From Candidatus Woesearchaeota archaeon (GTDB lineage Archaea; Nanobdellota; Nanobdellia; Woesearchaeales; DSVV01): a DNA stretch of 64,000 nt. The notes beneath the pieces are model-generated. The model saw only the letters and a program-made list of their open reading frames with translations, ran no database searches and was not told the DNA's origin. Numbering within the stretch: the stretch's first letter is position 1; each line of letters opens with the position of its first letter. The stretch lies in the NCBI GenBank assembly GCA_018657385.1, contig JABHXF010000009.1, positions 2,554-66,553 on the forward strand. Reading direction: 5' to 3'. Both the position numbers and the translations under genes were made by a program. Shown in pieces: positions 6,893 to 64,000 of the stretch.

Positions 6893-6979
6893 AAAAAACA
6901 ACAATGGCAGGCGAGCCGATAGGCGAGTAGGATATTTTCTTTAAGAAAATGTCCGTCTGTGCCATTGTTGTTGTTTTTT
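6893..6979 (+). repeat. structured intergenic repeat family 1, copy A (candidate ncRNA or MITE-like element)
   Basis: Outer inverted repeat AAAAAACAACAATGGC / GCCATTGTTGTTGTTTTTT encloses two hairpins: GAGCC-GAUA-GGCGA and GGAUAUUUUC-UUUAA-GAAAAUGUCC. Confidence 0.75.
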
Positions 6980-16190: not shown

Positions 16191-16192
16191 AA

Positions 16193-16852: not shown

Positions 16853-16894
16853 AAAATTAAAAAATAATTCCAATTAAGAGTAAATATTTCAAAA

Positions 16895-17782
16895 ATGAAT
16901 AAAATTAAAAAAAACTTTAAAATATTATTTCAAGATTATTTTGATTCATTTAAAAAAATTAGTTGGAGCTTTATCTTAATGATGATTACTGATTTTTTAT
17001 TTGTAATGTTATTGGTAGTTTTAATAACTTATTCATTTGGTTCTTTATCATCATATTATCAAGAAGCAATACCAGGGTTAGAAGAATATAAAAGTTTGTC
17101 TTTTTCCGAATTAAAAGAAAAAACCCCAGAGATTATCTCAAAAATTGAAGAAAATAAAGAAGAATTAGCAGCATCTGGTGTATATGATAATATTCAAATG
17201 AAAATAATAATGACATTATTATTGTCTGGTCTTCTTTTTTGTCTTTTATCTTCTTTGAGCAGATCAATTGTATGGGCACTAGTTAAAAAAAGCTTTAAAA
17301 AGTTCAATAGATTATTCATTTATAATTTTATATGGATTGTTTTCTGGGTTTTAGTGTTCATATTATTATTACTTATAATAAATCAAGAAACGATCATACA
17401 AGTATCATTATCTTTTATTTTTGTTTATGTTATACTTGCTTTGTTTTTTAGACTTAATTATAATATGAAAATCTATTCAAAAAATTCAATTACCGACGAG
17501 AAAATAAATAAAAATAGATTAATTAAACTTATTTTTTCAAAACCGGCAAAAGATATAATTGGTAGTTTGAAATTTTTTATATATTATTTTATTAGCTTTA
17601 TTTTAATTTTATTAACTTTTTCAATTGTTTTATCTATATCTAACTTATTCCAACGCATTATTATAAGTAATGAATTGATTATTGGCATTATTCAAATTAT
17701 TATAATTCTTGCATTAATTTCATGGGCAAGAATTTATCTAAATATAAGAATCCCATCAATTGTTGGAAAAACTCAAAATTAA
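16895..17782 (+). CDS. polytopic membrane protein, family D (D1)
   Basis: Multiple hydrophobic helices. Shares SIVWALVKKSFKKF and ISWARIYL motifs with GLIWAKIFNKKLDF and FSWAKRYL of 34674..35441. Confidence 0.65.
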   Translation: MNKIKKNFKILFQDYFDSFKKISWSFILMMITDFLFVMLLVVLITYSFGSLSSYYQEAIPGLEEYKSLSFSELKEKTPEIISKIEENKEELAASGVYDNIQMKIIMTLLLSGLLFCLLSSLSRSIVWALVKKSFKKFNRLFIYNFIWIVFWVLVFILLLLIINQETIIQVSLSFIFVYVILALFFRLNYNMKIYSKNSITDEKINKNRLIKLIFSKPAKDIIGSLKFFIYYFISFILILLTFSIVLSISNLFQRIIISNELIIGIIQIIIILALISWARIYLNIRIPSIVGKTQN

Positions 17783-17839
17783 AATTGTCATATTAAAGTT
17801 CATATAATATTAATAAAAACAAAAAAAGAGGAGATTACA

Positions 17840-22521: not shown

Positions 22522-22965
22522 GTCTTTTCCCTATTCTGTTATAGGGTGGGAAGAAGGGGTTCTTGGAGGATTGTATTGTTTGTGAAGGTTCTTTTAATTA
22601 ATTTGAAATTACTAACTGAATTTATTTTAAGTATGAAAAAACAACAACAATAATATAAAAATAAAAAATTCAGTAGAAACACACAAAAATAATCCAGACT
22701 TCATCGAGATTATTGAGCTTCCAAACAAGTTTGAAAGTACTCCGAATCTAGTTAAAAAAGGATTTTTACTAAAAAACATTTTTCTAACTGAAATATTTAA
22801 TTTGACTCTATTTTCTCCGGAAAATTTCCAAAGAAATTGGAAATATTTCATATATAATTTGTATTCTGAAAATTTTCTGACTAATTCCGAAAAACTTTCA
22901 ATCTCGTCGGAGAATTTACAAAAAATATTCAATCAAACTTATTAAGAAGTTAGTTTATAAAAAAT

Positions 22966-23011
22966 TAAGTGCCTAATGTGGCACCTGCTGAAAAGCAAAT
23001 AAAACCTCACC
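22966..23011 (+). pseudogene. degenerate copy of the 5' half of the downstream tRNA-like gene
   Basis: TAAGTGCCTAATGTGGCACCTGCTGAAAAGCAAATAAAACCTCACC aligns by eye with GTAAGCCTAATGGTAAGGCACCTGTTTGAAAAGCAGGCGAGACCTCACC at 23072..23120. Confidence 0.55.
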
Positions 23012-23065
23012 AAATATATTATTATCAAAACAAATATATAAAATTTTTGTTTTGGGATATGCAAT

Positions 23066-23173
23066 GCCAGAGTAAGCCTAATGGTAAGGCACCTGTTTGA
23101 AAAGCAGGCGAGACCTCACCGTCCCTTGCGGGTTCAAGGTCAATGGGGGTTGATGAAATTCCCGTCTCTGGCG
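23066..23173 (+). tRNA. tRNA-like gene, probable intron-containing tRNA-Phe (GAA), 108 nt
   Basis: Acceptor GCCAGAG/CUCUGGC plus discriminator G. D-arm with GG. Anticodon arm CCUGU-UUGAAAA-GCAGG. T-arm halves GCGGG-UUCAA and CCCGU are split by about 21 nt, and about 14 extra nt lie in the variable region. The exact splice sites (BHB) could not be resolved by eye. Confidence 0.5.
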
Positions 23174-23235
23174 CATTTTATCCTTTTTTAACTGGCCGAC
23201 AGGCTACTTTTGTTCTGTTTTTAATTTATTAAAAA

Positions 23236-23282
23236 GAAAAAATTCATGAGCTACATTGGCTTCGCCCTAGTTAAAAAAAAAA
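23236..23282 (-). terminator. family F2 downstream motif after the PAC2 gene
   Basis: In mRNA sense: T10-AACTAGGGCGAAGCCAATGTAGCTCATGAATTTTTT, starting directly after the stop at 23284. Confidence 0.45.
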
Positions 23283-23283
23283 T

Positions 23284-24078
23284 CTATCCAATATAAGACA
23301 TTTCACTCTTTAATTTGCCTTTTAGCTTATTAATAGCTGTATCATTACTAACTTCTGCTAATTCTTGAGTTGTTTTTAGCATCTCTTTTTCTAATCCTGT
23401 AATTTCTTTATCTAATTCTTTCAAATTTACTTTCAATGCTAACTTTTTCTCTAAAATTTTTAGAATTTCTCTTGCTCCTTTCACTCCTAAATACATTGGA
23501 TGACCAATTGTCTCTGCTAATAAAGCAATTGCATCTATTTTTGCTAATCCTACTAACAAACCAGTAACACCAACTATTGGACCAACAACACCATATATTT
23601 TACTTGTTGCTTTTGTATTAGTTGTATATTTCTTAACTATTTTCTCATTATTACCTGTACAATATACTTTTGGAGTTTTTGGAACATCTTGTAGTCCTAT
23701 CCCCCCTAAAGTAATTATTTCTTTACAACCAGTTTTATGACATAAATCTAAGATTGCTTCGCAAAATTCATAAGAACTTTCTTCATCAATGGGTTGAACA
23801 TCTCCAACTAGCATAATTAAATCATTTTTCTTTTTGTCATTGAATTTTTTATAATAAATATTAATTGAAGATAACTCTACTAAGTTTTTATCATTAACAA
23901 AAACTGAATGAGGCATTGTATTAGAAAAAACACTATATAATTTCTTTGCCTTAAGATCATCAACTAGAAAATCAACAACTACTTTACCAACATTACCCAT
24001 ACCTGGCAATCCCTCTAAGAAAACAGGATTGTTAAACTTTGGTAAATTTTTTTCTTTTAATGTTAATTTCCATTTCAT
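23284..24078 (-). CDS. PAC2-family (proteasome assembly chaperone-like) protein
   Basis: N-terminal FLEGLPGMGNVGKVVVDFL motif and overall architecture typical of archaeal PAC2/PbaA-B proteins. Lies downstream of nop10, as in many archaea. Confidence 0.65.
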   Translation of the reverse strand: MKWKLTLKEKNLPKFNNPVFLEGLPGMGNVGKVVVDFLVDDLKAKKLYSVFSNTMPHSVFVNDKNLVELSSINIYYKKFNDKKKNDLIMLVGDVQPIDEESSYEFCEAILDLCHKTGCKEIITLGGIGLQDVPKTPKVYCTGNNEKIVKKYTTNTKATSKIYGVVGPIVGVTGLLVGLAKIDAIALLAETIGHPMYLGVKGAREILKILEKKLALKVNLKELDKEITGLEKEMLKTTQELAEVSNDTAINKLKGKLKSEMSYIG

Positions 24079-24135
24079 TTTTGTTATTTAAGATAGGTTT
24101 TCGTTACGAAGAACGAACAACGAATAACCTTTATT

Positions 24136-24303
24136 TTATAATAATCCTTGCTCCTTTCTTTCCTTTTCCTTAACTTCCCTTCTATACTTCCCATATTTAT
24201 CATCTGGAGAGTACTTAGGTGGTTTAGGATCAATTGTAGTCTTCCCACAACATTCCTCTTTCATAGTATAACCATGTTCAGGACATTTCTTAATATGTTT
24301 CAT
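24136..24303 (-). CDS. nop10: H/ACA RNP subunit Nop10 (55 aa, below the ORF-track cut-off)
   Basis: Hand translation of the reverse strand gives MKHIKKCPEHGYTMKEECCGKTTIDPKPPKYSPDDKYGKYRREVKEKERKEQGLL. The zinc-ribbon-like N-terminus and the P-P-(K/R)-(Y/F)-S-P-(D/E)-D-x-Y-x-x-Y-R-R signature are typical of Nop10. Confidence 0.8.
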   Translation of the reverse strand: MKHIKKCPEHGYTMKEECCGKTTIDPKPPKYSPDDKYGKYRREVKEKERKEQGLL

Positions 24304-24392
24304 GTTATAAAAGTTAGGGGTGGTGTTTAAATAGTTTTTGGCTGATTAGGGTTATAATTTATAGATAATTAATAAGTACAAATAAAAAATAT

Positions 24393-24434
24393 AAATTCAT
24401 GAGCTACATATCGTCAGGAATCAGTAAAAAAAAG
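24393..24434 (-). terminator. family F2 downstream motif after gyrB
   Basis: In mRNA sense: TTTTTTTTACTGATTCCTGACGATATGTAGCTCATGAATTTAT. The ATGTAGCTCATGAATTT part is identical to the copy at 23236..23282. Confidence 0.45.
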
Positions 24435-24457
24435 AATTATAGATTTAGAAAAAAGAA

Positions 24458-26665
<2,208 letters not shown>

Positions 26666-26676
26666 TCAAAAATAGA

Positions 26677-26693
26677 TTTTCTCGACGAGAAAA
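26677..26693. promoter_or_regulatory. perfect 17-nt palindrome TTTTCTCG-A-CGAGAAAA upstream of gyrB
   Basis: Read directly; lies 78-94 nt upstream of the gyrB start codon. Confidence 0.4.
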
Positions 26694-26789
26694 AACATCT
26701 TAATTTACTAAAATTGAATGTGTTTTTGTTTATAAACTTTTTGATTTTCAAGTATAATATTCATGTCAAAAACAACATGGCTGTGTGAG

Positions 26790-26878
26790 AAAATTACAAC
26801 ATTGGCCAGGCGAGACGAAGTCGAGTAGGATATTTTCTCAAAGAAAATGTCCGTCTGTGCCAATCTTGTTGTTATTTT
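26790..26878 (+). repeat. structured repeat family 1, copy B
   Basis: AAAATTACAACATTGGCC...GAGAC-GAA-GUCGA...GGAUAUUUUC-UCAAA-GAAAAUGUCC-GUCUGUGCCAATCTTGTTGTTATTTT. Confidence 0.75.
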
Positions 26879-26891
26879 CTTAATATATATT

Positions 26892-26930
26892 AAAAATTCA
26901 GTAGAAACATGGACTCCATCCCTAGTAAAA
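26892..26930 (-). terminator. family F2 motif
   Basis: The + strand reads AAAAATTCAGTAGAAACATGGACTCCATCCCTAGTAAAA. Confidence 0.35.
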
Positions 26931-26936
26931 TTAAAA

Positions 26937-26974
26937 GAAAAAGTCCGTCTGTGCCTTGGTTGTTGTTGTTTTTT
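26937..26974 (+). repeat. structured repeat family 1, 3' half only (partial copy F)
   Basis: GAAAAAGTCCGTCTGTGCCTTGGTTGTTGTTGTTTTTT matches the right arm of the other copies but has no left arm. Confidence 0.6.
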
Positions 26975-27074
26975 ACTGAGAATTAAAAAAAATTACAAGA
27001 ATAAGGCCCTAGCAGTGATGATTTCTCTATTAATTAAAACAAAGAATATCTAAAATTATCAAAATAAAAATGTC

Positions 27075-27473
27075 CTAAAACAAAGTAATACCACTAAACC
27101 AATAAACTATTACCCAGAATAAGGCTATAATACCTAATTGTATTAGCCATGCAATTACAGCTCTAAACCATCCAATTCTAAACATTACTTTATAGACTAA
27201 TAACAAGATCACGAATGATAATAATCCTGCAAAATTATCAACTTTCAACCCAATGATATAACTTAAAACAGCAACAACCATATTTACTATTATTGCTTTA
27301 ATCCAATTAGATTTTCCCTCTAACATTTTAACAGCAATGTTCAATGGTATTGCAGAAATTGCAAAAGTTAATAACAAATAAAGTAATTTTGAAATCATAA
27401 TATTTCTTGATATGTTCTTATTTATATGTTTTTTGAGAAAAAGTCTTATTTTATGAATTAGAAGAAAATCCAT
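27075..27473 (-). CDS. small polytopic membrane protein; the true start is probably Met26 (27398)
   Basis: Hydrophobic helices run throughout. The first codons of the track ORF lie inside repeat copy G (27466..27567), so the upstream start is doubtful. Confidence 0.5.
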   Translation of the reverse strand: MDFLLIHKIRLFLKKHINKNISRNIMISKLLYLLLTFAISAIPLNIAVKMLEGKSNWIKAIIVNMVVAVLSYIIGLKVDNFAGLLSFVILLLVYKVMFRIGWFRAVIAWLIQLGIIALFWVIVYWFSGITLF

Positions 27474-27567
27474 TCATCCATGGCAGGGCTCACGGACTTT
27501 TTGCTTTGCAAAAAATCCTATTCAGCTCGTTACACTCGCTTCATCAGCCCGCCATGAATGGATTTTT
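27466..27567 (-). repeat. structured repeat family 1, copy G
   Basis: The reverse complement reads AAAAATCCATTCATGGCGGGCUGAUGAAGCGAGUGUAACGAGCUGAAUAGGAUUUUUUGC-AAA-GCAAAAAGUCCGUGAGCCCUGCCATGGATGAATGGATTT. Confidence 0.7.
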
Positions 27568-27582
27568 AGATTGGTGTTTTCT

Positions 27583-27695
27583 AAAAATCCAACAACAATG
27601 ACGCAGATGGGGGGAGGGTTGGCTCCTCTGGAGTCCCCCATAAGACAAATCGTTTACAATTTGACTGTCTGCTGTCTTTGTTGTTGTTGGATTTT
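27583..27695 (+). repeat. divergent member of repeat family 1 (copy H): same outer arms, different cargo
   Basis: Outer arms AAAAATCCAACAACAATGAC / GTCTTTGTTGTTGTTGGATTTTT. Inner GCAGAUG-(GGGGGA...UCCCCC hairpin)-AUA-(AGACAAAU...AUUUGACUGUCU hairpin)-GC. Confidence 0.55.
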
Positions 27696-27878
27696 TGATT
27701 TTTAATTATCTATTTTTATCATTTCACCAATCTCTACTTTACAATAAAAACAACATATAAACACACATAAAGTTATGAAAAGGATTATATATTAGCTAAT
27801 CTAGTACCTAGATATAATACAATTTGGCACATGTTAAGCTTTTCAAGTTTAACAATTCAAAAAGTGGAGGTAAATAAA

Positions 27879-28028
27879 ATGGCAGACAAATTAAGTTTCT
27901 ATGATGTAAAGGGTAAAACTAAATTTGAATCAGACAAATATGAAATCAAAGTAAGAAAAGGTCGAAAATTTGCAGTTGCAGATGCCCCATCAGGTATTAA
28001 AGCATGGAGAATCCTAGGAAGAGCATAA
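27879..28028 (+). CDS. small basic protein (49 aa), possible nucleic-acid-binding protein
   Basis: GGAGGT Shine-Dalgarno upstream of ATG 27879. Sequence MADKLSFYDVKGKTKFESDKYEIKVRKGRKFAVADAPSGIKAWRILGRA. The pattern resembles small zinc-ribbon proteins but lacks the cysteines. Confidence 0.5.
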   Translation: MADKLSFYDVKGKTKFESDKYEIKVRKGRKFAVADAPSGIKAWRILGRA

Positions 28029-28203
28029 ATTTATGCTTTCTTTTTAATTTTTTCTTTTAATTATTAAATTATAATGCTTTCTCAAAATTAACTATTTTTA
28101 CCACCTATTTTAGGTAAAAAGGCCATAATTGTTATCAATCGGTAAATAAATTATATAAATGGTGGGATGATTCTTTGTATATATATGAATTTGGGGGATT
28201 TTA

Positions 28204-34496: not shown

Positions 34497-34592
34497 AAAT
34501 CCAACAACATTGGCCGGACGAGCCGATAGGCGAGTAGGATTTTTCGAACAGAGTGAGAAAAGTCCGTCCGTGTCATTGTTGTTGTTGGATTT
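34497..34592 (+). repeat. structured repeat family 1, copy C
   Basis: AAATCCAACAACATTGGCC-GGAC-GAGCC-GAUA-GGCGA-GUA-GGAUUUUUC...GAAAAGUCC-GUCCGUGUCATTGTTGTTGTTGGATTT. Confidence 0.75.
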
Positions 34593-34615: not shown

Positions 34616-34658
34616 AAAACCTTCAATAGAAACATGTCCTCCGGACCTAGTAAAAAAA
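34616..34658 (-). terminator. family F2 downstream motif after 34674..35441
   Basis: In mRNA sense: TTTTTTTACTAGGTCCGGAGGACATGTTTCTATTGAAGGTT, about 15 nt after the stop. Confidence 0.45.
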
Positions 34659-35571: not shown

Positions 35572-37899
35572 CTAGCTCTTATAATAATTAGCTGGCATTT
35601 GACCACAACTATAATCTCCATTATCAACATCAATTATGAATTCTTCTCCACCTAAGACATTACATATAGGCTTAACATACTTATCATTATCTAATATTTT
35701 CAAACAAACATGATCAAATCTACATTCTTGTTTTTTAAAGTTAGTACCATCACCATCACATACAAAAGTTGTTTCATCTCCTGCATAATGGATTCTATGA
35801 ACTCCTAAAGGATTGTTTACAGCAAACTCATCCATCCAACCATATGCACCAGTATATTCTGATCCAAATGATTTTTTCTTTGTACAATGATTGTATAAAT
35901 AAACAATACCATGTATTGGTCCAATTGTTTGTAAAGTAAAAGAATATCTAAATGCATTTTCATCTACTACTTCTTTTTCTCCACCTAAAGTTACAATTAC
36001 TTCTCCTTCATCTAAATAACCAAGATTAAAGCCAAAATTATGTTCTTGTGTTATTGTTAATCCTGAAATAACATCAGTTTCACTCTCACCAGTATTATAA
36101 TAATCCATTGTACAAACAGAATCATACAACCAATACTCTAATCTTGAAAAAGCATTTTCAGTCCAATCATCTAATAAAGTTCCAAAAACACTTTCTACTC
36201 TAGATCTAAACTCAAAATTAAGATTATCATATGTTGCATCCATTTTTTTTTGTGCTCCTGTACATTCTGGACCAGCATAAGCTTTTTTGTCACATGCTTC
36301 AATTGTCTTTTCAATATAACCAGTTGGATCACCAGCACATCTTTTTAAGCCATCGAAAGTAGTACAATAAATACTTCCTTCTGATTCATGAACACATCCT
36401 TTAACATTATCACACTTTCTTTTTGCACAATCTCCACCAGAAGCAGCATCTGCTGCAGTACATCTTTTACCATCTGCAGTTGCATAAACATAACCTTCTG
36501 TTCCTTGGAAAACACTATGATGTTTAAACGTAAAAGAAGCTTTACCAGCATCGCAATTATCATCATCTTCACAAACAAATACATCTCCCTCTGTATCTAA
36601 CCCACCTATTTTAGATGATGATTTTTGTTCTTTAGGTTTTTGTTCTTCTTTTGTTTCTTCTTTCTTTTCTTCTTCTTCATTAGGTGAATTTAGTGGTACA
36701 GTTTTAGTTACAGCCATACTATCTTTAGCAAGTTGGCCTAATTTATTGTATTTGTTAAGATCATCTCCTAAATTATTAGCCATTGTACAATCATTTTTTT
36801 TACATACTAATATTACCTTACCTTCCTGATCATAATAAGCAGTTTCATCATCATCAGTAAGGGAAAAATCAAAACTAACACCCTTTTTATCTCCAGACTT
36901 TTCATTTAAAGTATAACCTTTTCCCTTTTCCCCATCAACATAATAGATTAACTTTTCCTGAGCTTCTTCTTCACCATCATCAGCATCTTCTTCTTCTTCT
37001 CCTGGAGTGTTTGATTTTGGTGGTTTAGCATAAGTGTCTAGTTTCTCTTGATTATTCTTTGCAGTTTTTTTAAGTTGATTTGCTTCTTTAGTTAATTTAT
37101 CTGCAAGTTCTATTTTTCCTTGCTTTTTAGCTTCTTCTGCCGCTTTTTCATAATCATTAGCTAATTCCTTTACTTTTTCATTGTATTCTTCTAACTCTGT
37201 TACTAATTCCTTTCTTTTTTCCTCATCAGGGGACACAGTAAGTACAAATGAAAGTTCATCAGAAAGTTCAGTAATCTTTTGATCATATTCATCTTTTTTC
37301 TTGTCTGCATCTTCAATTGCTTTTTCTAAATTCTCAATTGGTTGTTCTTCTTCAGATGCTTCATCTTCCCCATCTTCATCATCATCATCATCCTCATCTT
37401 CTTCTACATTTGATTCAGGTGGAGGAGCAGGTTCAGTAGAAGGATTTTGTTGTGCATATCCTGTTTCAAATGCACCAACCATTTTATTAAAATCATCTTT
37501 ATCTTTTGGTTCCATCTCAGTGTCCATCATTTGTTTACATTGATTTGCATTACCACATTCACGTTCATCACCACCCATAATAAAAGGTTTTTTTGCATAA
37601 GCTTTAACTAAAGTTGCTTTACCAGAATCATCAACCTTAAATTTAACTTTAAGCTTCCCAGTACCAGCTTCTTTGTAACCTTCATAATTACCTTCATCAT
37701 CAACAGGATATAATGTAATTTCTTTCATCCCTTGACCAATAGTAATTGGATTACCATTTTGTGTTACAGGTTCATCTTTCCAATCTGCCATTCCTGCCAG
37801 ATTACTTTGATAGCTAGGACTATAGAAAACTGCCATTGAAAATAGAAACATGACTAGTACAATCATGCTTACTGCCTTTCTAAAATGCTGTTTTGGCAT
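35572..37899 (-). CDS. family C protein (775 aa): signal anchor, acidic and K/E-rich coiled-coil-like region, conserved roughly 335-aa Cys-rich C-terminal domain
   Basis: The C-terminal 335 aa align almost continuously with the C-terminus of 38198..44596 (for example NFEFRSRVESVFGTLLDDWT, YWLYDSVCTMDYYNTG, ISGLTITQEHNFGFNLGYLDEGE, HYAGDETTF). Confidence 0.75.
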   Translation of the reverse strand: MPKQHFRKAVSMIVLVMFLFSMAVFYSPSYQSNLAGMADWKDEPVTQNGNPITIGQGMKEITLYPVDDEGNYEGYKEAGTGKLKVKFKVDDSGKATLVKAYAKKPFIMGGDERECGNANQCKQMMDTEMEPKDKDDFNKMVGAFETGYAQQNPSTEPAPPPESNVEEDEDDDDDEDGEDEASEEEQPIENLEKAIEDADKKKDEYDQKITELSDELSFVLTVSPDEEKRKELVTELEEYNEKVKELANDYEKAAEEAKKQGKIELADKLTKEANQLKKTAKNNQEKLDTYAKPPKSNTPGEEEEDADDGEEEAQEKLIYYVDGEKGKGYTLNEKSGDKKGVSFDFSLTDDDETAYYDQEGKVILVCKKNDCTMANNLGDDLNKYNKLGQLAKDSMAVTKTVPLNSPNEEEEKKEETKEEQKPKEQKSSSKIGGLDTEGDVFVCEDDDNCDAGKASFTFKHHSVFQGTEGYVYATADGKRCTAADAASGGDCAKRKCDNVKGCVHESEGSIYCTTFDGLKRCAGDPTGYIEKTIEACDKKAYAGPECTGAQKKMDATYDNLNFEFRSRVESVFGTLLDDWTENAFSRLEYWLYDSVCTMDYYNTGESETDVISGLTITQEHNFGFNLGYLDEGEVIVTLGGEKEVVDENAFRYSFTLQTIGPIHGIVYLYNHCTKKKSFGSEYTGAYGWMDEFAVNNPLGVHRIHYAGDETTFVCDGDGTNFKKQECRFDHVCLKILDNDKYVKPICNVLGGEEFIIDVDNGDYSCGQMPANYYKS

Positions 37900-38081: not shown

Positions 38082-38169
38082 AAAAAACAACAACCAAGGC
38101 ACAGACGGACTTTCTTCGAAAGTCCTATTCGCCTCGCTTTGCTCGTCTCATCTGGCCATGTTGTTTTTT
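38082..38169 (-). repeat. structured repeat family 1, copy D
   Basis: The reverse complement reads AAAAAACAACAUGGCCAGAUGAGACGAGCAAAGCGAGGCGAAUAGGACUUUC-GAA-GAAAGUCCGUCUGUGCCUUGGUUGUUGUUUUUU. Confidence 0.75.
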
Positions 38170-38197: not shown

Positions 38198-41100
38198 TTA
38201 ACAGCCATAATCGCCTTCATCAGTGATTACAAACTCATCTCCACCTAATTGAGTGCAAATAGGTGCAGTATATTTTTCTTTTTGTGAATCTGTCCAAGTA
38301 TCCACGTCCATGATTTTCAAACAAACATAATCAAACCTACATTCTGTATCAATTTCATCACATATAAAAGTTGTTTCATCACCAGCATAATGTGTTCTAT
38401 GAACACCCTTAGGATTATTCACAACAAACTCATCATTCCAACCAATTTGTCCAGTTGCTTTGCTTTCAAAAGATTTTTCAGAATCACATTTATTATAAAG
38501 ATAAACAATACCATGCAGTGCCCCAATTGTTTGAAGACTAAATGAATATCTATAAATTCCTTCATCAACGATTTCTCGTTCACCACCAATTGTTGCAATT
38601 ATCTCTCCTTCATCCAAATATCCTAAATTAAAACCAAAATTATGTTCTTGTGTTATAGTTAGTCCTGAAATTACATCAGTTTCACTACTTCCAGTATTAT
38701 AATAATCCATAGTACAAACAGAATCATACAACCAATATTCCATTTTATTGAAAAAGTTTCCTGTCCAATCATCCAACAAAGTTCCAAACACACTTTCTAC
38801 TCTAGATCTAAATTCAAAGTTTAATGTATCATAAACTTTATCCATTCTTTTTTGTGCTCCTGGACAATTTGGTCCTTTATAACTATTTTTATCACAATCT
38901 TCAATCATTTTTTCAATTGAATCAACTGGATTTGTTGCACATGCTTTTTCTCCTTGATATGTTGTACAAAAAGTATCACCATCATAATCATGTTTACATC
39001 CTGTTAATTTATCACATTTAACAGCTGAACAACCAGAATTAGGATTTGATGCTTCTGCTGCTGAACAAGGAACTTTTTTACCTTTTTCTTCTTTCACGTA
39101 TACAAAACCTTCTGTTCCTTGGAAAACACTATCATGTTTAAACATAAATGAAGCTTTAGTAGGATCACACTCCTCTACTTTAGCGTCGCAAACAGCCAAA
39201 TCACCATTACTATCTAAGCCAGCAATATTTTCAGGTGGTTTGTATTCTTTTTTAGCTTTTGCTGCTGCTTCAGCTTCTGCTTTTTTCTTTGCTTCTTCTT
39301 CTGCTTTTTTCTTTTTTTCTTCTTCAGCTTTCTTTTTCTCTTCTTCAGCTTTTTTCTTTTCTGCAGCTTCTTTTGCTTTTTCTTCTTCTGTTTTTTCTTT
39401 TCCTTCTTTCTTTTCTTCTTCAGCTTTTGCTTCTACTTCTTTAGCTTTTGCTGCTGCTTCTTTTTCTGCCTTTGCTTTTGCTTCATTCTCTTCTTTAACT
39501 TTTTCATCAATAACTTCTTCTTTCAATGCTTTTGCTTGTGGTCCTAATTCACCATCTTTATATTTAATTAATTTTGTTTTATCTTTTTCTGTATAACCAA
39601 CAGGATCACCTTTAGCATCATAATAAATTGTTTCTCCTGTTTTTTTATTTTTAAAAGCTTTAGTATGTTCTCCTGCATCAACAACTTCATAAGTTCCTTT
39701 ACTTGTTGTTATAATTTGTCCAGAAGTAAATGAAGCAGTCCATGGAGTTACTGGAATTATTGGAGTTGGTGAAACACCACCAGGCATTGTTCCTGATTTT
39801 TGTTTTAATTCCTGTTTCTTTTTCTGTTCCTCAACTAATTCTTTTGCTCCCTCTAGAACATCATTTCTTTCATTAAAATTCTGAACATCTTCTTGAGCTA
39901 ATTTTGTTAAGAATGCAAGATTCATATCATCCTCTTCAATTGTATCAACTAAATCATCAAAATGATCATCTAAACCTTTACATAGTTTTGGATCACACTC
40001 TGTGTATGTAACTTGATCTTTATTAACACCTGCCTGAAAAGAATCAACTATACCTACAACTTTTCCTTTATTGTTAATAACAACATATTGGTTATCTATT
40101 TTAGTATTACCAAAATATAAGGATTCACCAGATTTTGGATTAGAACTAAATTTTTGATAAGTACTGCCACCATAAATTATATCCCCTAACTGAGGCGAAT
40201 TAGGATAATAAACCATTTCAACTCTTTCATCTCCTTTACCAACACCAACTTTTACTTTTCTGACATTACCATCTTCGTCAAATGTTAGTGTTCTTGCATT
40301 ATCAAAACTTTCAATATTTTTTTGTGAGCCAGTAAAACCACCCCAATTATTAGGATTAACTTCACCATCTCCTTCAGATAATATTGTCAATTCTGTTTCT
40401 CCTTCATTATTCTCAGAAAATTCATAAACATGTTCATCAGTATCCCAACCAGCAATTGCAACATAACATCTTTTTCCTTTACAAACGAAACCATCATCTT
40501 CAAAACTTCTACCTTGCATATCTTGAGAAATTCTTCCGTAAAGCAAAGCAATTTCTTTTTCTGATAATTTAGAATCTTTAAAAGCAGTTTCATAAACTCT
40601 TTGTGGAATTTCAACTTCATTCCCCCCTATATCTGTATATTTATAATGGGTTATTCCATCATCATCTACATGTGTTCTAATATATTTTCCAGACACCTCT
40701 GAACCTAATCCTTTTGACGAAGAACCAAGTCTAAGTTTATAGTTACTATGACCTAATTTCAAAGAATCTTTGTCTAGATAAGCTTTAACATCCCTCTGGA
40801 TTAAGTCTAAAACAGCTCCAATTTGTTCTTTTGCAGATTCACATTTATCAGGAAATTGTGTACAATCTAGAGAACCAACAGATTTAATAACTCCAAAATT
40901 ATCTACTACAACTTCTTTGTCTTCCCCATCAATTTCTACTTTACCTTTCCATCTACCTTGAGTTCCATCACCTACAAATTCAAAGTTTCTTCCATCAGTA
41001 TCTTTAATATTTCTTTTCCCTGTTAGAGGGGAATAAGATGCAATTAATCCATTATTCATTTTAATTTCATATTCATCTAAAGCAGTGCCTGTTTTGAATT

Positions 41101-44100
41101 TATAGGTTAAAACCCCATTATATCTTAAATTTTCAAGACCTGTATTTTCATCAGACATGCCTCGTTGATAATTTTCTTCGAAAAATTCTAATCTATCAGA
41201 ATCATCATCACCAACCCTAGGTCCGATTAGAGTATCTTCAGAATGTTTACTTCTAAAATCTTCATATATTCTTACAACTTTTTCACCATTAACAATGTCT
41301 ACTGTAAAAACATTACCATCAACTGCACATGCAAAACTTCCACATTTCATTTTCATTGCTGCACCATTTAATGTTTTATCATCATATCTTGTTGCAATTG
41401 CTTCATACAATAATGCAACATCTTCTTCTTCCATAATTGTTTGATCTAAAATATTTTTAGAAGTATCAATCTTTGTCATTTGCATTAATTCATTATATGC
41501 ACCTTTTGGAATCTTTAATTTTTTATCTTGATCTGATGTTGGATTTAAATAATATTCAACAATACCATTGTTTGTTTCTTTTTTGAATTTAGAGAAAAGC
41601 TGAGGAGTTATTGGCTCTGTTCCTTGAGCCATAAATTGTTTTAGTCTTAGTTCATCTCTCATTACCCTTAAATCAGCAACCATAGCATTTTGTGTTTGAG
41701 GATCTGCTATCCCACTTGGAACACATTTTGAATCTGCTATATTACCATAACATGAAACTTCTTTATTCTTATCTTTAGTTTTATAACACTTCTTTTCTTC
41801 ACAATAATGCTTATTTCCTAAATCTCTGTCAATGATTCTTTGTTGGTATTCTTTCAAACTTAAAGTTCCATCTTGATCTGATTTAACATCTAAAAATATT
41901 AGAGCTGATTGAATTTCTTTAGCATCTCCAAACTCAAACTGGCCAGGTCCTTTATCTAATCCCTTTAAACCATCAATAACAGGATTCATTCCAGTGTCTG
42001 CTTCTGAAACATAACCAACTTTAATTGTATCAGCAACACCTGTTGCAGCTTCTTCAGCTACTTGTTGAGATAAACCAGGCACAGTTTTGGTTGGTGCTTC
42101 TGTTAGTGTTATTAATTTACCAATAACCTCACTAGGATCACCAGTTGTTAATTCTCCTGTTACCATACTTGCTCTATCCCCATTTTGATCATAACAATAT
42201 TGTTTATCATAACAATAAACATTTCCTTTATTTGTTTCTACAATATCGTAAAATAATGTTTCATCTTCAACTTTAATAGTCAAAACAGTTCCAGTTACTG
42301 ATGCAGTTCCTCCTGTTGCCTCAAATAGTTTAATAGGAGCTTTAGTTTCAACTACAACTTGAGAAACAATACTAACATCTGGAGCAGCTTGTAATGCAGC
42401 AGTTTTAGCAAAATCACCAATGTTTTCTTCAGCATATTGTTCTGTTATAACACCATTTTGATAAACATCTCTTCTTTCTTTCCCAAGTGCATCTATATAT
42501 GCTAATGTTCCTGTTTGGAAAGGAACTATATTTCCATCTTCTTGTAAAATTTGCATATCACCACTCAAACTTTTAAAAATTCTCTGCCCATCATATGAAC
42601 CCCCACCTATTTTTGTTCCAACAGGACTAAAAAATTCACCTTTACCCCCACCAGAAATAACAAGAATAGAATCTTCACCAGTAAATCTACCATTATCAAC
42701 AACTTGATAATTTCCTTGATTATCTACAACTATGAATTCAGTGGTTACCTGCTTTGTTTTTTTATCAATACTTTTTTTTACATAAACTCTTCCTGATGGT
42801 GTTAAAAACTCAGTGGATTCAACACTAAAAAGACCATAACCATTATCAACCCCAAGAAGAATACCATCATTAGTTGTATCAACCATTTCTTTTTGTGCAT
42901 TACGAAACTTACCAGCTGCAGAATTATCCTTCTCATCTAATTTTCCAGATAATAATGCATAACGTACTTTTCCACTTGCATCAAAACTTTTTACAGGAAC
43001 AGTGGAACTAGAAGGCAACTTGAAATATTCTTTTCCCATCTTCAAACAAAAATTATTACTACCACAAGAATAAACTTGTTTTCCTGTTGCAGTAGAATAT
43101 GATGTTGGTGTTGGTTTTTTAACATCTTCTGTTGGTTCCCACTTTTGTGTCAGTTTTACACCTGCACTTTTAAGTGAATCTGGAGTACCATCACTAATTG
43201 GTTTTGGTTTTTTTAATTTCAAATCAATAACTTGTTGTTGTGGAGCTTCTTCAATATATACTAAATCATCTGGTAAAATATCAGGTTCGTTTGCTAATTC
43301 CATAACTTGGTCATAATTAACCTTTTTTATAACCATACCAGTAGAGGTGATAACAACCTGCTCGCCGTTATTATTAACCATCATTAATTTACCTTCATTA
43401 TCACGTTTATAACCAAACATTCCATCTACTTCAAGATAAGCACCATTCTTTTTTGTTTTAACCCTATATGTTTCAATAAATCCTAAACTATCAAGAACTA
43501 TTTGGCCATTATTAAGTGTTAATGTTTGACCTTTAACTTGGTTTCCACTTAAATCATAAACTTCACCTGCAGTTGTTTTAAAATATTTTTTAGTTGACTT
43601 CCCACCAATACTTAATGGTGTAACATCATGTGTAACATCATCATTATCAAATAATAATGTATGTTCTTCAATACCTTGTGGAGTAACTTTCTGCAACTTG
43701 AATGTTTTTTTACCTGGATTAGAAATCTTTTTCCATTCTAAATTAGTAGAAAGATAATATAGATGACCATCAACACCCTCAATAACAGTTTGTTCCTGCC
43801 TTGCATCATCAATTGCACTTGATGGATGAAAAATATAAGGTATTCCAACAGGTTCAGGAGGAATAATTGAATTCTGCTTTTCAAGAGCTATTCTCATTGC
43901 TTTTTGTTGTGCTTCACTATATTTTTGTTCTTCAATATCATCTGAAGTTAAAACTTTATTCCCTTTATTAGTATCAACCCAAACTTGTTCATTATTACTA
44001 TTAACTGTTAATATTTGCCCATTTGAATCTTTTACAAGTCCTAATTGAGAATCTCTTACAGTATATACACCATTTAATCCTGTAGGAACTAAAACATTAT

Positions 44101-44596
44101 TAACATATCCATTTTTTGTTATCTTAACTTGGCCACCACCTAATGAAAATGATTGTGTAACAATCTCTGAGTCTAAGCCAATAACAACATTATCAGATCT
44201 TAAAAAATAATTATTACTTGTTTTACTACCAACTGTGATAGGTTTTATAGAAATTACTTTGTTAGCCTTGTCAATAATATAAGTCTTCTTTTTCTGAGTT
44301 GCTGTTGTATCAATAATAGTAACTCTCCTATCTGATGTTTTTGGTTGATATAATACTAATGGTTTTCCTGTTCCTAAAACATAAAGTTTCCCATCATTTC
44401 CTAATGTTGCGGGGATAATCTTTTTACCTTCTAAAATATTTACTTCTTTACCTTCTATTGATTTTTTTGCAAAGCCAACAACATCATCTGATTTATTAGA
44501 TTGTTGATACTCTTGGCTGTTAAACATTAAGAAAGCAGAAGCTATGATAACTAATGTAATCATAAACATTGCTAATCTGAACTTTCTCTTTGGCAT
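38198..44596 (-). CDS. family C giant protein (2132 aa): signal anchor, internally duplicated beta-rich N-terminal region, repeated C-x(n)-C-Y knuckles, K/E/A-rich low-complexity region, conserved Cys-rich C-terminal domain
   Basis: Uninterrupted 6.4-kb ORF. N-terminus MPKRKFRLAMFMITLVIIASAF parallels MPKQHFRKAVSMIVLVMFLFSM of the 775-aa paralog. The C-terminal domain is shared with it. Confidence 0.8.
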   Translation of the reverse strand: MPKRKFRLAMFMITLVIIASAFLMFNSQEYQQSNKSDDVVGFAKKSIEGKEVNILEGKKIIPATLGNDGKLYVLGTGKPLVLYQPKTSDRRVTIIDTTATQKKKTYIIDKANKVISIKPITVGSKTSNNYFLRSDNVVIGLDSEIVTQSFSLGGGQVKITKNGYVNNVLVPTGLNGVYTVRDSQLGLVKDSNGQILTVNSNNEQVWVDTNKGNKVLTSDDIEEQKYSEAQQKAMRIALEKQNSIIPPEPVGIPYIFHPSSAIDDARQEQTVIEGVDGHLYYLSTNLEWKKISNPGKKTFKLQKVTPQGIEEHTLLFDNDDVTHDVTPLSIGGKSTKKYFKTTAGEVYDLSGNQVKGQTLTLNNGQIVLDSLGFIETYRVKTKKNGAYLEVDGMFGYKRDNEGKLMMVNNNGEQVVITSTGMVIKKVNYDQVMELANEPDILPDDLVYIEEAPQQQVIDLKLKKPKPISDGTPDSLKSAGVKLTQKWEPTEDVKKPTPTSYSTATGKQVYSCGSNNFCLKMGKEYFKLPSSSTVPVKSFDASGKVRYALLSGKLDEKDNSAAGKFRNAQKEMVDTTNDGILLGVDNGYGLFSVESTEFLTPSGRVYVKKSIDKKTKQVTTEFIVVDNQGNYQVVDNGRFTGEDSILVISGGGKGEFFSPVGTKIGGGSYDGQRIFKSLSGDMQILQEDGNIVPFQTGTLAYIDALGKERRDVYQNGVITEQYAEENIGDFAKTAALQAAPDVSIVSQVVVETKAPIKLFEATGGTASVTGTVLTIKVEDETLFYDIVETNKGNVYCYDKQYCYDQNGDRASMVTGELTTGDPSEVIGKLITLTEAPTKTVPGLSQQVAEEAATGVADTIKVGYVSEADTGMNPVIDGLKGLDKGPGQFEFGDAKEIQSALIFLDVKSDQDGTLSLKEYQQRIIDRDLGNKHYCEEKKCYKTKDKNKEVSCYGNIADSKCVPSGIADPQTQNAMVADLRVMRDELRLKQFMAQGTEPITPQLFSKFKKETNNGIVEYYLNPTSDQDKKLKIPKGAYNELMQMTKIDTSKNILDQTIMEEEDVALLYEAIATRYDDKTLNGAAMKMKCGSFACAVDGNVFTVDIVNGEKVVRIYEDFRSKHSEDTLIGPRVGDDDSDRLEFFEENYQRGMSDENTGLENLRYNGVLTYKFKTGTALDEYEIKMNNGLIASYSPLTGKRNIKDTDGRNFEFVGDGTQGRWKGKVEIDGEDKEVVVDNFGVIKSVGSLDCTQFPDKCESAKEQIGAVLDLIQRDVKAYLDKDSLKLGHSNYKLRLGSSSKGLGSEVSGKYIRTHVDDDGITHYKYTDIGGNEVEIPQRVYETAFKDSKLSEKEIALLYGRISQDMQGRSFEDDGFVCKGKRCYVAIAGWDTDEHVYEFSENNEGETELTILSEGDGEVNPNNWGGFTGSQKNIESFDNARTLTFDEDGNVRKVKVGVGKGDERVEMVYYPNSPQLGDIIYGGSTYQKFSSNPKSGESLYFGNTKIDNQYVVINNKGKVVGIVDSFQAGVNKDQVTYTECDPKLCKGLDDHFDDLVDTIEEDDMNLAFLTKLAQEDVQNFNERNDVLEGAKELVEEQKKKQELKQKSGTMPGGVSPTPIIPVTPWTASFTSGQIITTSKGTYEVVDAGEHTKAFKNKKTGETIYYDAKGDPVGYTEKDKTKLIKYKDGELGPQAKALKEEVIDEKVKEENEAKAKAEKEAAAKAKEVEAKAEEEKKEGKEKTEEEKAKEAAEKKKAEEEKKKAEEEKKKKAEEEAKKKAEAEAAAKAKKEYKPPENIAGLDSNGDLAVCDAKVEECDPTKASFMFKHDSVFQGTEGFVYVKEEKGKKVPCSAAEASNPNSGCSAVKCDKLTGCKHDYDGDTFCTTYQGEKACATNPVDSIEKMIEDCDKNSYKGPNCPGAQKRMDKVYDTLNFEFRSRVESVFGTLLDDWTGNFFNKMEYWLYDSVCTMDYYNTGSSETDVISGLTITQEHNFGFNLGYLDEGEIIATIGGEREIVDEGIYRYSFSLQTIGALHGIVYLYNKCDSEKSFESKATGQIGWNDEFVVNNPKGVHRTHYAGDETTFICDEIDTECRFDYVCLKIMDVDTWTDSQKEKYTAPICTQLGGDEFVITDEGDYGC

Positions 44597-55391: not shown

Positions 55392-55408
55392 TATGGAGGG
55401 AAAACAAA

Positions 55409-55762: not shown

Positions 55763-55776
55763 ATCTTTGGTGAAAA

Positions 55777-63950: not shown

Positions 63951-64000
63951 AAAATAACAACTTGGCCAGATGAGCCGAAGGCGAATAGGATATTTGCGTA
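63951..64000 (+). repeat. structured repeat family 1, copy E (truncated by the window end)
   Basis: AAAATAACAACTTGGCCAGATGAGCCGAAGGCGAATAGGATATTT... matches the left half of copies A-D. Confidence 0.65.

What the first reader, a model, noticed from the sequence alone, without database searches (positions are those of the whole stretch)
34497..34592. Eight-copy family of roughly 90-nt intergenic structured elements with compensatory base changes (candidate novel ncRNA or RNA-bearing MITE)
Copies lie at 6893..6979(+), 26790..26878(+), 26937..26974(+, right half only), 27466..27567(-), 27583..27695(+, divergent), 34497..34592(+), 38082..38169(-) and 63951..64000(+, cut by the window). All share the same architecture: an outer stem from A-rich/T-rich arms ((A)AAAACAACAAUGGC ... 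GCCAUUGUUGUUUUU), then two internal hairpins forming a three-way junction.
Hairpin 1 always has tandem G.A/A.G pairs at its base, and its helix covaries:
- GAG-CC-GAUA-GG-CGA
- GAG-AC-GAA-GU-CGA
- GAG-CC-GAA-GG-CGA
- longer versions in copies D and G with a second tandem GA
Hairpin 2 keeps GGA...UCC but changes length and sequence in a compensatory way:
- GGAUAUUUUC/GAAAAUGUCC
- GGAUUUUUC/GAAAAGUCC
- GGACUUUC/GAAAGUCC
- GGAUUUUUUGC/GCAAAAAGUCC
A U.G wobble is conserved in hairpin 2. It is a pair only on one strand, which argues for function at the RNA level in the orientation given. The junction strands UAGGA and GUCCGUCUG are nearly invariant. The tandem sheared-GA hairpin is the hallmark of K-turn/K-loop motifs bound by archaeal L7Ae. 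I do not recognise the element as any described RNA family.
Basis: seen in the sequence. Interest (0 to 1): 0.8.

Follow-up and report, generated by a model that had tools for sequence, protein, structure and literature searches.

The report
Folded palindromic repeat family in Woesearchaeota
The finding is one copy of an abundant, roughly 95-base repeat that sits between genes in a group of tiny archaea (Woesearchaeota) and folds on one strand into a conserved three-armed structure; it behaves like a mobile or recombining repeat, not a fixed RNA gene, and matches no described family.

Summary
The window has five full copies, one cut copy, one half copy and one variant with the same arms. A covariance model finds nothing else in the window. 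The same element occurs as 98 distinct copies in Woesearchaeota MAGs and marine metagenome contigs. The three-way junction is strongly supported: 97% of cells are paired, 19 of 24 pairs change on both sides, and no shuffle reaches this. It is strand-specific (G.U 188 cells, A.C 17). No Rfam family matches.

The K-turn/L7Ae reading is not supported. The base 5' of the first GA pairs with the base 3' of the second GA (C-G 57, U-A 38), so the 3-nt bulge is missing.

The copies do not behave like RNA genes:
- no conserved promoter
- symmetric A/T runs
- orientation neutral to neighbouring genes (29 sense, 27 antisense)
- at orthologous sites in related genomes, copies are kept, inverted or absent

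No target-site duplication or transposase was found. One orthologous copy is as conserved as the adjacent gene. Hairpin 1 loops fit the stable DNA mini-hairpin class, not GNRA.

Best reading: a REP/MITE-like palindromic repeat whose single-strand fold (ssDNA or RNA, unresolved) is under selection. It is a new variant of a known kind.

The parts
34497..34592 (+). Copy F, the finding itself. Outer arms 34497-34509 / 34575-34592. GGC/GUC 34512-34514 / 34572-34574. Bulged U 34571. Helix P1b CGGA 34515-34518 / UCCG 34567-34570. Closing pair C34519-G34534. Tandem GA 34520-34521 and 34532-34533. Hairpin 1 GCC-GAUA-GGC 34522-34531. Junction UA 34535-34536. Hairpin 2 34537-34565. Junction G 34566.
   Evidence: Sequence. 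R1 82.3 bits. RNA fold -42 kcal/mol, z = -7.1. Positions assigned from alignment A4 and the structure tested.
6893..6979 (+). Copy A, full copy, GC-G subtype, GAUA loop in hairpin 1.
   Evidence: 84 bits; z = -6.8.
26768..26789 (+). Fragment of a 5' arm (AAAAACAACAUGGCUGUGUGAG) directly abutting copy B.
   Evidence: Seen in sequence. Together with half-copy C it brackets copy B, which suggests a nested insertion or recombination between copies.
26790..26878 (+). Copy B, full copy, GAA triloop in hairpin 1.
   Evidence: 86.8 bits. Identical score in the 99%-GyrB relative L052.
26937..26974 (+). Copy C, 3' half only: 3' strand of hairpin 2, GUCUGUGCC and the 3' arm.
   Evidence: (repeat family D11).
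27466..27567 (-). Copy D, full copy. Its arms are changed compensatorily (AUCCAUUCAUGGC / GCCAUGGAUGAAUGGAU), hairpin 1 is long with a second tandem GA, and it carries a local UGAUGA...CUGA.
   Evidence: 61.4 bits.
27583..27695 (+). Copy E, variant subfamily. It has the same arms and the same CAGAU/GUCUG helix. Hairpin 1 is replaced by a long GC-rich hairpin without tandem GA. The base of hairpin 2 is AGAC/GUCU.
   Evidence: 33 bits. Relatives L069 1867-1981 and L134 5188-5307 show covariation. An interior match lies in L035.
38082..38169 (-). Copy G, full copy, AU-A subtype, long hairpin 1, C-G in place of U.G in hairpin 2.
   Evidence: 88.3 bits.
63951..64000 (+). Copy H, 5' half, cut by the end of the window.
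   Evidence: 40.2 bits, model positions 1-55, truncated at the 3' end.

Best explanation
The element is a member of a REP/MITE-like family of intergenic palindromic repeats in Woesearchaeota (DPANN archaea).

Each copy has two parts:
- A long A/T-rich palindromic stem, bounded by an A-run and a T-run, which reads the same from either side.
- An asymmetric core of about 60 nt that folds on one defined strand into a three-way junction. The order is: helix P1b; hairpin 1 with a Y-R pair, tandem sheared G.A and a C-G(N)NA-G cap; linker UA; hairpin 2 starting GGA/UCC; linker G.

Shown:
- The fold is under selection on one strand.
- Copies are gained, lost and inverted between related genomes.
- At least one copy is kept at an orthologous gene boundary, as well conserved as the gene beside it.

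Inferred:
- The folded single strand, more likely DNA than RNA in my estimate (about 55:45), is the substrate of a trans-acting protein. That protein copies, moves or recombines the element, in the manner of REP/REPIN-RAYT, IS200/IS605 ends or integron attC sites.
- The symmetric outer stem with its T-runs serves the host as an orientation-independent stop or 3'-end hairpin at gene boundaries, which lets copies persist.
For: Family and fold:
- 150 hits, 98 distinct, in Woesearchaeota MAGs (JABJHR01, JACQSP01, JAGVYP01, JAGVYH01), marine metagenome contigs and the window.

Strand specificity:
- G.U 188 cells against A.C 17.
- Forward against reverse model scores are 82-88 against at most 20 bits.

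Mobility and turnover:
- The operon [1315 aa][193][280][805] carries three copies in JABJHR01 (L054). The syntenic genes of the window (12150-20227) and of L056 carry none.
- L056, a relative with 83% GyrB identity, has no copy in 22 kb.
- Across pairs of related genomes, orthologous sites are about 5 same orientation, 4 inverted and 8 empty.
- Fragments and nested copies occur.
- Copies B-E lie where gene order differs from relatives.

Orientation:
- All 98 copies are intergenic.
- 29 are sense and 27 antisense between co-directional genes, 17 lie between convergent genes and 10 between divergent genes.

Not a simple RNA gene:
- Information content is about 0 upstream of position -15.
- T-runs of at least 5 occur in 47 of 97 copies, A-runs of at least 5 in 52 of 97.

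Persistence under constraint:
- The copy downstream of a ribC-like gene is 83-91% identical among three genomes. The gene is 85-86% identical and the flanking spacers 23-75%.
- Its differences are compensatory.

Lean towards DNA:
- Hairpin 1 caps are GAA 63 of 98, GAUA 11, GUUA 5, GACA 1.
- That is the C-G(N)NA-G class described as extraordinarily stable DNA mini-hairpins, whose RNA versions are much less stable (PMC13037366).
- None of the 18 tetraloops (GAUA 11, GUUA 5, GACA 1, GAAU 1) is GNRA.
Against: - No enzyme was found. No transposase, HUH or recombinase domain turned up in the window ORFs tested.
- There is no multi-copy ORF family in about 0.8 Mb of element-bearing loci. Whole genomes could not be scanned.
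- No conserved target sequence lies at the left boundary, unlike IS200/IS605.
- The core of a resident orthologous copy is conserved better than its arms. A purely selfish core does not predict this. It fits a locus-level function such as a protein-binding RNA.
- G.U is the majority state at two pairs, which is more comfortable in RNA than in DNA.
- Only about half of the copies have a run of 5 or more T, so a terminator role cannot hold for all.
- RNA and DNA folding cannot be told apart from sequence alone.
Confidence: 0.4

Rival explanations
1. It is a family of small structured RNAs, either independent sRNA genes or RNA modules. The GA-rich three-way junction binds a protein (L7Ae or another), and the copies have multiplied in these genomes.
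For: - Covariation is strong and includes wobble-only substitutions.
- Junction nucleotides are invariant even in copies not selected by my search pattern.
- The forward strand folds 4-11 kcal/mol better than the reverse as RNA, but only 2-3.4 kcal/mol better as DNA.
- An orthologous copy is conserved like a gene, its core better than its arms.
- Orientation independent of neighbours is also what independently transcribed sRNA or tRNA genes show.
Against: - No conserved promoter at any fixed distance.
- No excess of T-runs on the forward strand.
- Whole-element inversion occurs at the same site in related genomes, and many orthologous sites are empty.
- The K-turn geometry needed for L7Ae is absent.
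- Hairpin 1 caps are GAA triloops and non-GNRA tetraloops.
- No Rfam match.
Confidence: 0.3
2. It is a host gene-boundary signal only: a bidirectional transcription terminator or 3'-end hairpin that spreads by duplication and gene conversion, with no dedicated mobility enzyme.
For: - All copies are intergenic, often 10-100 nt from stop codons.
- The arms are palindromic, with A-run and T-run symmetric.
- Orientation neutrality and in-situ flips would be harmless for such a signal.
- Copies are kept on both sides of a ribC-like gene in three genomes.
- Archaeal RNA polymerase terminates at oligo-T (general knowledge).
- Mosaic differences between orthologous copies look like segmental conversion.
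Against: - It does not explain the conserved, strand-specific asymmetric core or its invariant junction bases.
- Only about half of the copies carry 5 or more T.
- 10 copies lie between divergent genes, where no terminator is needed.
- The same genomes have a separate, simpler hairpin-plus-U-run motif after genes (window 6011-6035, 23192-23216).
Confidence: 0.15
3. It is an ordinary cut-and-paste MITE, mobilised by a DDE transposase through its terminal inverted repeats. The internal hairpins are incidental.
For: - Small size, terminal inverted repeats, many copies, intergenic location and patchy distribution.
- A second subfamily (copy E) shares the arms but has a different interior.
Against: - There is no target-site duplication: direct repeats of 4 or more nt occur at 5 of 97 copies against 5.0 expected.
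- The arms themselves covary rather than keeping one sequence (copy D, L035, L045).
- The interior is more conserved than the arms and is strand-specific.
- No transposase or longer parent element with the same ends was found in about 0.8 Mb.
Confidence: 0.05

Closest known systems
REP / REPIN elements with their RAYT (HUH Y1) transposases in bacteria
   Same: - Short (about 70-110 nt) imperfect palindromes, tens to hundreds of copies, strictly intergenic and in either orientation.
- They persist at orthologous sites and have no target-site duplication.
- The fold is read on a single DNA strand.
- A GTAG-like tetranucleotide lies next to a hairpin (GAGUAGGA in 58 of 98 copies).
- The REP/RAYT properties listed here are from my own knowledge.
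   Different: - The core here is an asymmetric three-way junction, not two inverted simple hairpins.
- The host is a DPANN archaeon.
- No RAYT or other HUH gene was found (not testable genome-wide here).
- 40 of 98 copies have AUAG instead of GUAG.
Prokaryotic MITEs that are also transcribed and structured (Correia/NEMIS, ERIC, RUP, BOX); archaeal MITEs of Sulfolobus, Halobacterium and Haloquadratum (review PMC10969869)
   Same: Non-coding, about 100 nt, terminal inverted repeats, multi-copy and intergenic. They affect gene boundaries.
   Different: - No target-site duplication and no cognate insertion sequence.
- The interior is under strand-specific structural selection.
- No MITE is listed for DPANN archaea in that review.
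Integron attC recombination sites
   Same: - Imperfect palindromes of about 60-140 nt whose structure, rather than sequence, is conserved.
- They are recombined as a folded single DNA strand, so they are strand-specific.
- Their outer arms contain ...AAC / GTT... like the CAAC/GUUG arms here.
- The attC properties listed here are from my own knowledge.
   Different: - Copies here are not in co-oriented arrays of cassettes next to an integrase. Neighbouring copies differ in orientation.
- They sit between core genes such as gyrB.
- The core is a three-way junction.
K-turn / K-loop motifs bound by L7Ae
   Same: Tandem sheared-type G.A/A.G next to a Watson-Crick helix. Copy D even has UGAUGA...CUGA.
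   Different: - There is no 3-nt bulge 5' of the GA. That position is a covarying Watson-Crick pair (C-G 57, U-A 38).
- The three unpaired bases (RUA) lie 3' of the GA on the other strand, which is the wrong polarity.
Hammerhead ribozyme core
   Same: A three-way junction in which one hairpin is extended by tandem G.A pairs plus a pair between the flanking bases (like G8.A13, A9.G12, U7-A14). GUC follows the second hairpin.
   Different: - The bases corresponding to C3-A6 are in a covarying helix (A-U 49 / G-C 46).
- There is no A15.1-U16.1 pair.
- U4 is A in most copies.
- No Rfam hammerhead model matches even at E <= 10.
T-shaped terminal hairpins of parvoviruses (AAV ITR) and single-strand initiation sites with GCGAAGC-type mini-hairpins
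   Same: - A long stem carrying two small internal hairpins, which is a three-way junction in single-stranded DNA.
- Both orientations of the asymmetric core occur ('flip/flop').
- CCGAAGG / GCGAAGC caps occur at ssDNA priming sites (PMC13037366).
   Different: - The copies here are chromosomal, interstitial and multi-copy.
- No Rep or primase partner is known.
- No copy was found in viral contigs.

Membership tests
K-turn / K-loop (L7Ae site) | Tandem trans sugar-Hoogsteen G.A and A.G pairs at the start of the non-canonical stem | tested here: met
   GA...GA flanks hairpin 1 in 96-98 of 98 copies, and in 17-19 of the 19 copies not selected by the search pattern. The pair geometry itself is inferred.
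K-turn / K-loop (L7Ae site) | Three-nucleotide bulge on the strand 5' of the G.A pairs, between the canonical and non-canonical stems | tested here: not met
   No unpaired bases lie 5' of the GA. The preceding base pairs with the base after the second GA (C-G 57, U-A 38, U.G 1, other 2). Only copy D could form a GAU bulge.
K-turn / K-loop (L7Ae site) | Binding by L7Ae | not testable with these tools
   Needs EMSA or a structure.
Box C/D sRNA | C (RUGAUGA), D' , C' and D (CUGA) boxes with 10-12 nt guides | tested here: not met
   Only copy D has UGAUGA...CUGA, 15 nt apart. No second box pair exists in any copy. Rfam C/D models give only sub-threshold chance hits elsewhere.
Hammerhead ribozyme | Unpaired core CUGANGA ... 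GAAA, A15.1-U16.1 pair and H17 cleavage site around a three-way junction | tested here: not met
   The CAGR bases are in a covarying helix. The linker is R-U-A, not A15.1 paired. No Rfam hammerhead hit.
Any Rfam 15 family | Match to a curated covariance model | tested here: not met
   The gathering-threshold scan of the window gives only two tRNAs. E <= 10 scans of 26600-27900 and of L045 4400-4900 give only chance hits away from the copies.
MITE (DDE cut-and-paste) | Terminal inverted repeats, small size, many copies, intergenic | tested here: met
   Arms of 12-19 nt. 98 distinct copies, none inside ORFs.
MITE (DDE cut-and-paste) | Target-site duplication | tested here: not met
   Direct repeats at the boundaries are no more frequent than in shuffled pairings.
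MITE (DDE cut-and-paste) | Autonomous parent element with the same ends and a transposase | tested here: inconclusive
   None was found in the window ORFs tested. About 0.8 Mb of loci has no orphan arm pairs around ORFs and no multi-copy ORF family. Whole genomes were not scanned.
REP/REPIN-RAYT | Intergenic palindromic repeats read as single-stranded DNA, persisting at orthologous sites, in either orientation | tested here: met
   The identity of the strand as DNA rather than RNA is inferred.
REP/REPIN-RAYT | A single-copy RAYT (HUH Y1) gene in each genome that carries the repeats | not tested
   This needs complete genomes.
Integron attC | Co-oriented arrays of cassettes adjacent to an intI integrase | tested here: not met
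   Adjacent copies differ in orientation (L054: -,+,+,-; L110: +,-,+,+). They separate core genes such as gyrB.
Ribosomal-protein leader (S8e) | Conserved position upstream of the same r-protein gene in different lineages | tested here: not met
   One copy lies 85 nt upstream of rps8e in L045. Three other DPANN/Asgard rps8e loci have none.

The most novel reading that the evidence does not exclude
The element could define a previously undescribed system in Archaea, in one of two forms. One is the first REP/attC-like repeat read as folded single-stranded DNA by an as yet unidentified archaeal HUH or recombinase enzyme. The other is a new protein-binding structured RNA class, with a GA-rich three-way junction unrelated to K-turns, expanded to roughly a hundred copies in a reduced DPANN genome. 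That copy number is an extrapolation from 7 copies in 64 kb and a guessed genome of about 1 Mb; it was not measured. In either form it would have a host-level role at gene boundaries.
Probability: 0.35. Interest if true: 0.8.

Novelty: new variant of a known kind. Interest (0 to 1): 0.6.

Why it matters
DPANN archaea have very small genomes and are thought to carry few mobile elements and little spare DNA. Yet this window carries about one copy per 9 kb, and copies are also frequent in related genomes.

The family offers three things:
- a clean, covariation-proven three-way junction with invariant junction bases, which is a well-defined target for finding its protein partner
- a natural data set for telling apart selection on folded DNA and on RNA
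- markers of genome rearrangement and of gene-boundary organisation in an uncultivated lineage

If the partner turns out to be an HUH or recombinase enzyme, this would extend REP/RAYT- or attC-like biology to Archaea. If the element is an RNA, it is a new abundant archaeal RNA class.

The practical lesson for genome scans is that tandem G.A pairs and one-strand wobble pairs do not by themselves indicate a K-turn or an RNA.

Tried and rejected
1. K-turn / L7Ae: rejected on geometry.
2. Box C/D sRNA and hammerhead ribozyme: the defining cores are absent.
3. Known RNA family: no Rfam match at the gathering threshold or at E <= 10.
4. Ribosomal protein S8e leader. This idea came from the copy upstream of rps8e in L045.
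   - Three other rps8e loci lack the element.
   - L045 itself looks like a DPANN contig despite its 'Methanosarcinales' label. Its best named S8e relatives are Heimdall-, Woese- and Nanoarchaeia (60-68% identity), and its synteny resembles Woesearchaeota locus L138.
5. Own promoter. A conserved module (GTGAGTGACATTGGCTCCGCCCTAGTGTTGTAGAG plus an AT-rich spacer) precedes 11 copies in JABJHR01 and resembles the region upstream of the tRNA-Arg promoter in the window. However, it accompanies only 11 of 98 distinct copies, and the pooled upstream profile carries no information.
6. Forward-strand terminator asymmetry: none.
7. Target-site duplication: none.
8. Parent transposon or transposase: none found.
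9. Virus or plasmid origin: only two chance-level matches in IMG/VR.
10. Literature: searches for Woesearchaeota/DPANN with MITE, REP, or noncoding RNA plus covariation found nothing relevant.
11. Aligning filled against empty orthologous intergenic sites between the window and L056 to define exact termini: the genomes are too diverged (neighbouring proteins 30-47% identical).

Full report
**1. What is in the window**

The window is about 30% G+C. It carries an intron-containing tRNA. Its GyrB is 82-83% identical to proteins named Candidatus Woesearchaeota, so the organism is a DPANN archaeon.

A covariance model (R1) was built from 28 copies (alignment A2). It finds five full copies, the divergent copy E and weaker partial matches, and nothing else in 64 kb with filters off. 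Forward strands score 61-88 bits; the reverse strands of the same loci score at most 20. Each copy folds much better than its shuffles (z = -3.8 to -7.1).

**2. The family elsewhere**

I scanned one genome per species with an exact pattern for the core that left the covarying positions free. This returned 51 loci:
- 22 in four Woesearchaeota MAGs (JABJHR01, JACQSP01, JAGVYP01, JAGVYH01)
- one in a contig labelled Methanosarcinales (L045)
- 28 high-GC bacterial hits, about the number expected by chance

The metagenome scan returned 81 loci. All but three are at most 33% G+C. R1 then found 150 copies, of which 98 are distinct (alignment A4). None is identical to the window, which is therefore a separate lineage. 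IMG/VR gave only two chance-level matches.

**3. Structure**

RNAalifold and pair counting agree on a three-way junction:
- 97.3% of 2330 cells are standard pairs.
- 19 of 24 pairs change on both sides.
- None of 500 shuffles reaches the observed values.
- Sliding the partner by 1-3 columns collapses pairing to 39-53%.

Clear examples of covarying pairs:

| Pair (A4 columns) | Counts |
|---|---|
| 32-50 | G-C 41, C-G 37, U-A 13, U.G 3 |
| 24-143 | A-U 49, G-C 46 |
| 62-135 | U-A 63, A-U 32 |

A new point concerns the base just 5' of the first GA (column 27). It covaries with the base just 3' of the second GA (column 55): C-G 57, U-A 38, with three exceptions. The coupling holds in the 10 copies where the neighbouring column 26 has recombined. 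The tandem GA is therefore a symmetric 2x2 internal loop inside hairpin 1.

The refined architecture, 5' to 3', is:
- P1 arms
- GGC/GCC, with a conserved bulged U on the 3' strand
- P1b
- hairpin 1: Y-R pair, GA/GA, G-C, N-N, C-G, cap
- linker UA
- hairpin 2: GGA(Y)U-rich ... A-rich(G)UCC
- linker G

The junction bases are nearly invariant even in the 19 copies that my fishing pattern did not select.

**4. Strand**

Within pairs there are 188 G.U cells against 17 A.C cells. At two pairs one partner is fixed (U141, G136) and the other varies only between the two bases that can pair with it. This holds equally for RNA and for single-stranded DNA.

**5. Known motifs**

- No Rfam family matches.
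- The K-turn needs a 3-nt bulge 5' of the GA pairs, which is absent (section 3).
- Box C/D and hammerhead cores are absent. The bases that a hammerhead would leave unpaired are in a covarying helix.

**6. Behaviour in genomes**

- All 98 copies are intergenic.
- Between co-directional genes 29 are sense and 27 antisense; 17 lie between convergent and 10 between divergent genes.
- The pooled flanks show that conservation starts 14-15 nt before GGCC and ends 19 nt after GCC. Nothing upstream is conserved.
- A-runs and T-runs are symmetric.
- There is no target-site duplication.
- No orphan arm pairs enclose an ORF.
- No multi-copy ORF family exists in about 0.8 Mb.
- No transposase domain occurs in the window ORFs tested.

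**7. Comparative evidence**

*Presence and absence.* In JABJHR01 three consecutive intergenic spacers of an operon each hold a copy (L054). The syntenic genes in the window and in L056 have none. L056 (83% GyrB identity) has no copy in 22 kb. In the window, copies B-E lie where gene order around gyrB differs from L054 and L056.

*Orthologous sites.* Among related marine genomes (65-86% DNA identity), orthologous sites are occupied in the same orientation about 5 times, in the opposite orientation about 4 times, and empty about 8 times.

*The best case* is a ribC-like gene flanked by copies in three genomes.
- The downstream copy is orthologous and 83-91% identical. The gene is 85-86% identical and the neighbouring spacers 23-75%. 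Its differences are compensatory, including matched insertions on both sides of hairpin 2.
- The upstream copy keeps the same unusual termini (AAUUCAACAAC...GUUGUUGAAUU). In one genome, relative to the other two, it is inverted as a whole and belongs to a different subtype.

So copies turn over and flip, yet some persist under constraint.

**8. RNA or DNA?**

Against a discrete RNA gene:
- no promoter
- no strand-biased T-run
- flips at the same site

For DNA:
- The caps of hairpin 1 are GAA (63 of 98), GAUA (11), GUUA (5) and GACA (1).
- This is the C-G(N)NA-G class of extraordinarily stable DNA mini-hairpins, found at single-strand replication and priming sites. Their RNA versions melt far lower (PMC13037366).
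- None of the tetraloops is GNRA.

For RNA:
- G.U is the majority state at two pairs.
- The forward strand is favoured more strongly with RNA than with DNA energy parameters.
- The core of a resident copy is conserved better than its arms.

I consider the question open, leaning slightly towards DNA.

**9. Explanation adopted**

It is a REP/MITE-like palindromic repeat family. The asymmetric core is selected as a folded single strand, most simply because a trans-acting protein uses it to copy, move or recombine the element. The symmetric outer stem with its A/T runs is tolerated or used at gene boundaries in either orientation.

The steps shown are the fold, its strand specificity, the turnover, the flips and the persistence. 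The steps inferred are the nature of the strand, the existence of the protein and the boundary function.

**10. Side observations**

- A second repeated module ('motif 2') and a third (a mini-hairpin plus U-run after genes) share these spacers.
- Copy E represents a sister subfamily with the same arms.
- Tandem arrays of the right arm occur in two loci.
- L045's copy lies upstream of rps8e, but that association is not general.

Noticed in passing
window 5925-5952(-), 6825-6856(-), 23245-23272(+), 26906-26930(+), 34631-34655(+); L001 3140-3248, L008 1440-1553, L029 2232-2341: A second repeated module: CAU, then a small covarying hairpin (GUCC-UCC-GGAC / GGC-UYC-GCC), then CUAGU. In JABJHR01 its long form (GTGAGTGACATTGGCTCCGCCCTAGTGTTGTAGAG plus about 27 nt of AT-rich spacer) precedes 11 of 98 element copies. 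It also occurs as inverted pairs without an element. In the window one copy lies just upstream of the AGAG+TATA region of tRNA-Arg. Its function is unknown (promoter-upstream site?).
   Followed up: partly
window 6011-6035(-), 7018-7046(-), 23192-23216(+): A third repeated motif: a mini-hairpin GGCY-GNNA-GGCU followed by CUUUUUGUUCUG. It lies right after the 3' end of ORF 6045-6854 and of the intron-containing tRNA, and looks like an intrinsic-terminator-type signal in an archaeon.
   Followed up: no
window 23066-23173(+): A tRNA gene with inserted segments, probably introns. Rfam tRNA finds it at 44 bits, but ARAGORN misses it and reports only tRNA-Arg at 5800-5876(-).
   Followed up: no
window 27583-27695(+); L069 1867-1981(-); L134 5188-5307(-); L035 8-45: A sister subfamily ('E-type'). 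It has the same arms and the same CAGAU/GUCUG helix and AUA linker. Hairpin 1 is a long GC-rich hairpin without tandem GA, and the base of hairpin 2 is AGAC/GUCU. It covaries between genomes.
   Followed up: partly
L070 3434-3733; L097 196-336: Tandem arrays (units of about 57 nt) made of the element's right arm (GCCATGAATGTTGTTGTTTTTTG) plus a constant 34-nt flank, lying next to a full copy. The 'spacers' are identical, so this is a tandem duplication and not a CRISPR array.
   Followed up: no
window 22600-28200 compared with L056 10001-15654 and L054 10001-14800: Gene order and orientation around gyrB (PAC2, Nop10, a 107-aa membrane protein, YkuD) differ between the window and its relatives. 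Element copies B-E occupy the junctions. QueA (10812-11987) is also inverted relative to L110/L020, where a copy follows it.
   Followed up: partly
L045 4528-4706(-): A single copy with quite different arms (AAAAUUACUAUUCCUGGCC...) lies 85 nt upstream of rps8e, in the sense orientation. The contig is labelled Methanosarcinales, but its S8e relatives and synteny look DPANN-like. This may be a mis-binned contig.
   Followed up: yes
L058 9778-9921; L066 2403-2540: Copies carrying about 50-nt insertions of other small palindromic sequences, one inside hairpin 2 and one inside the 3' arm. This shows that several small palindromic repeat families nest into each other in these genomes.
   Followed up: no
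window 55056-56887(+); 21130-21345(+); 35754-36250 and 38356-38851: Three further repeats inside coding regions: five adjacent paralogous ORFs of about 111-121 aa with no Pfam match; a 72-nt x3 in-frame Cys-rich repeat inside ORF 20338-22521; and 77-80% identical segments shared by the two large neighbouring ORFs 35572-37899 and 38198-44596.
   Followed up: no
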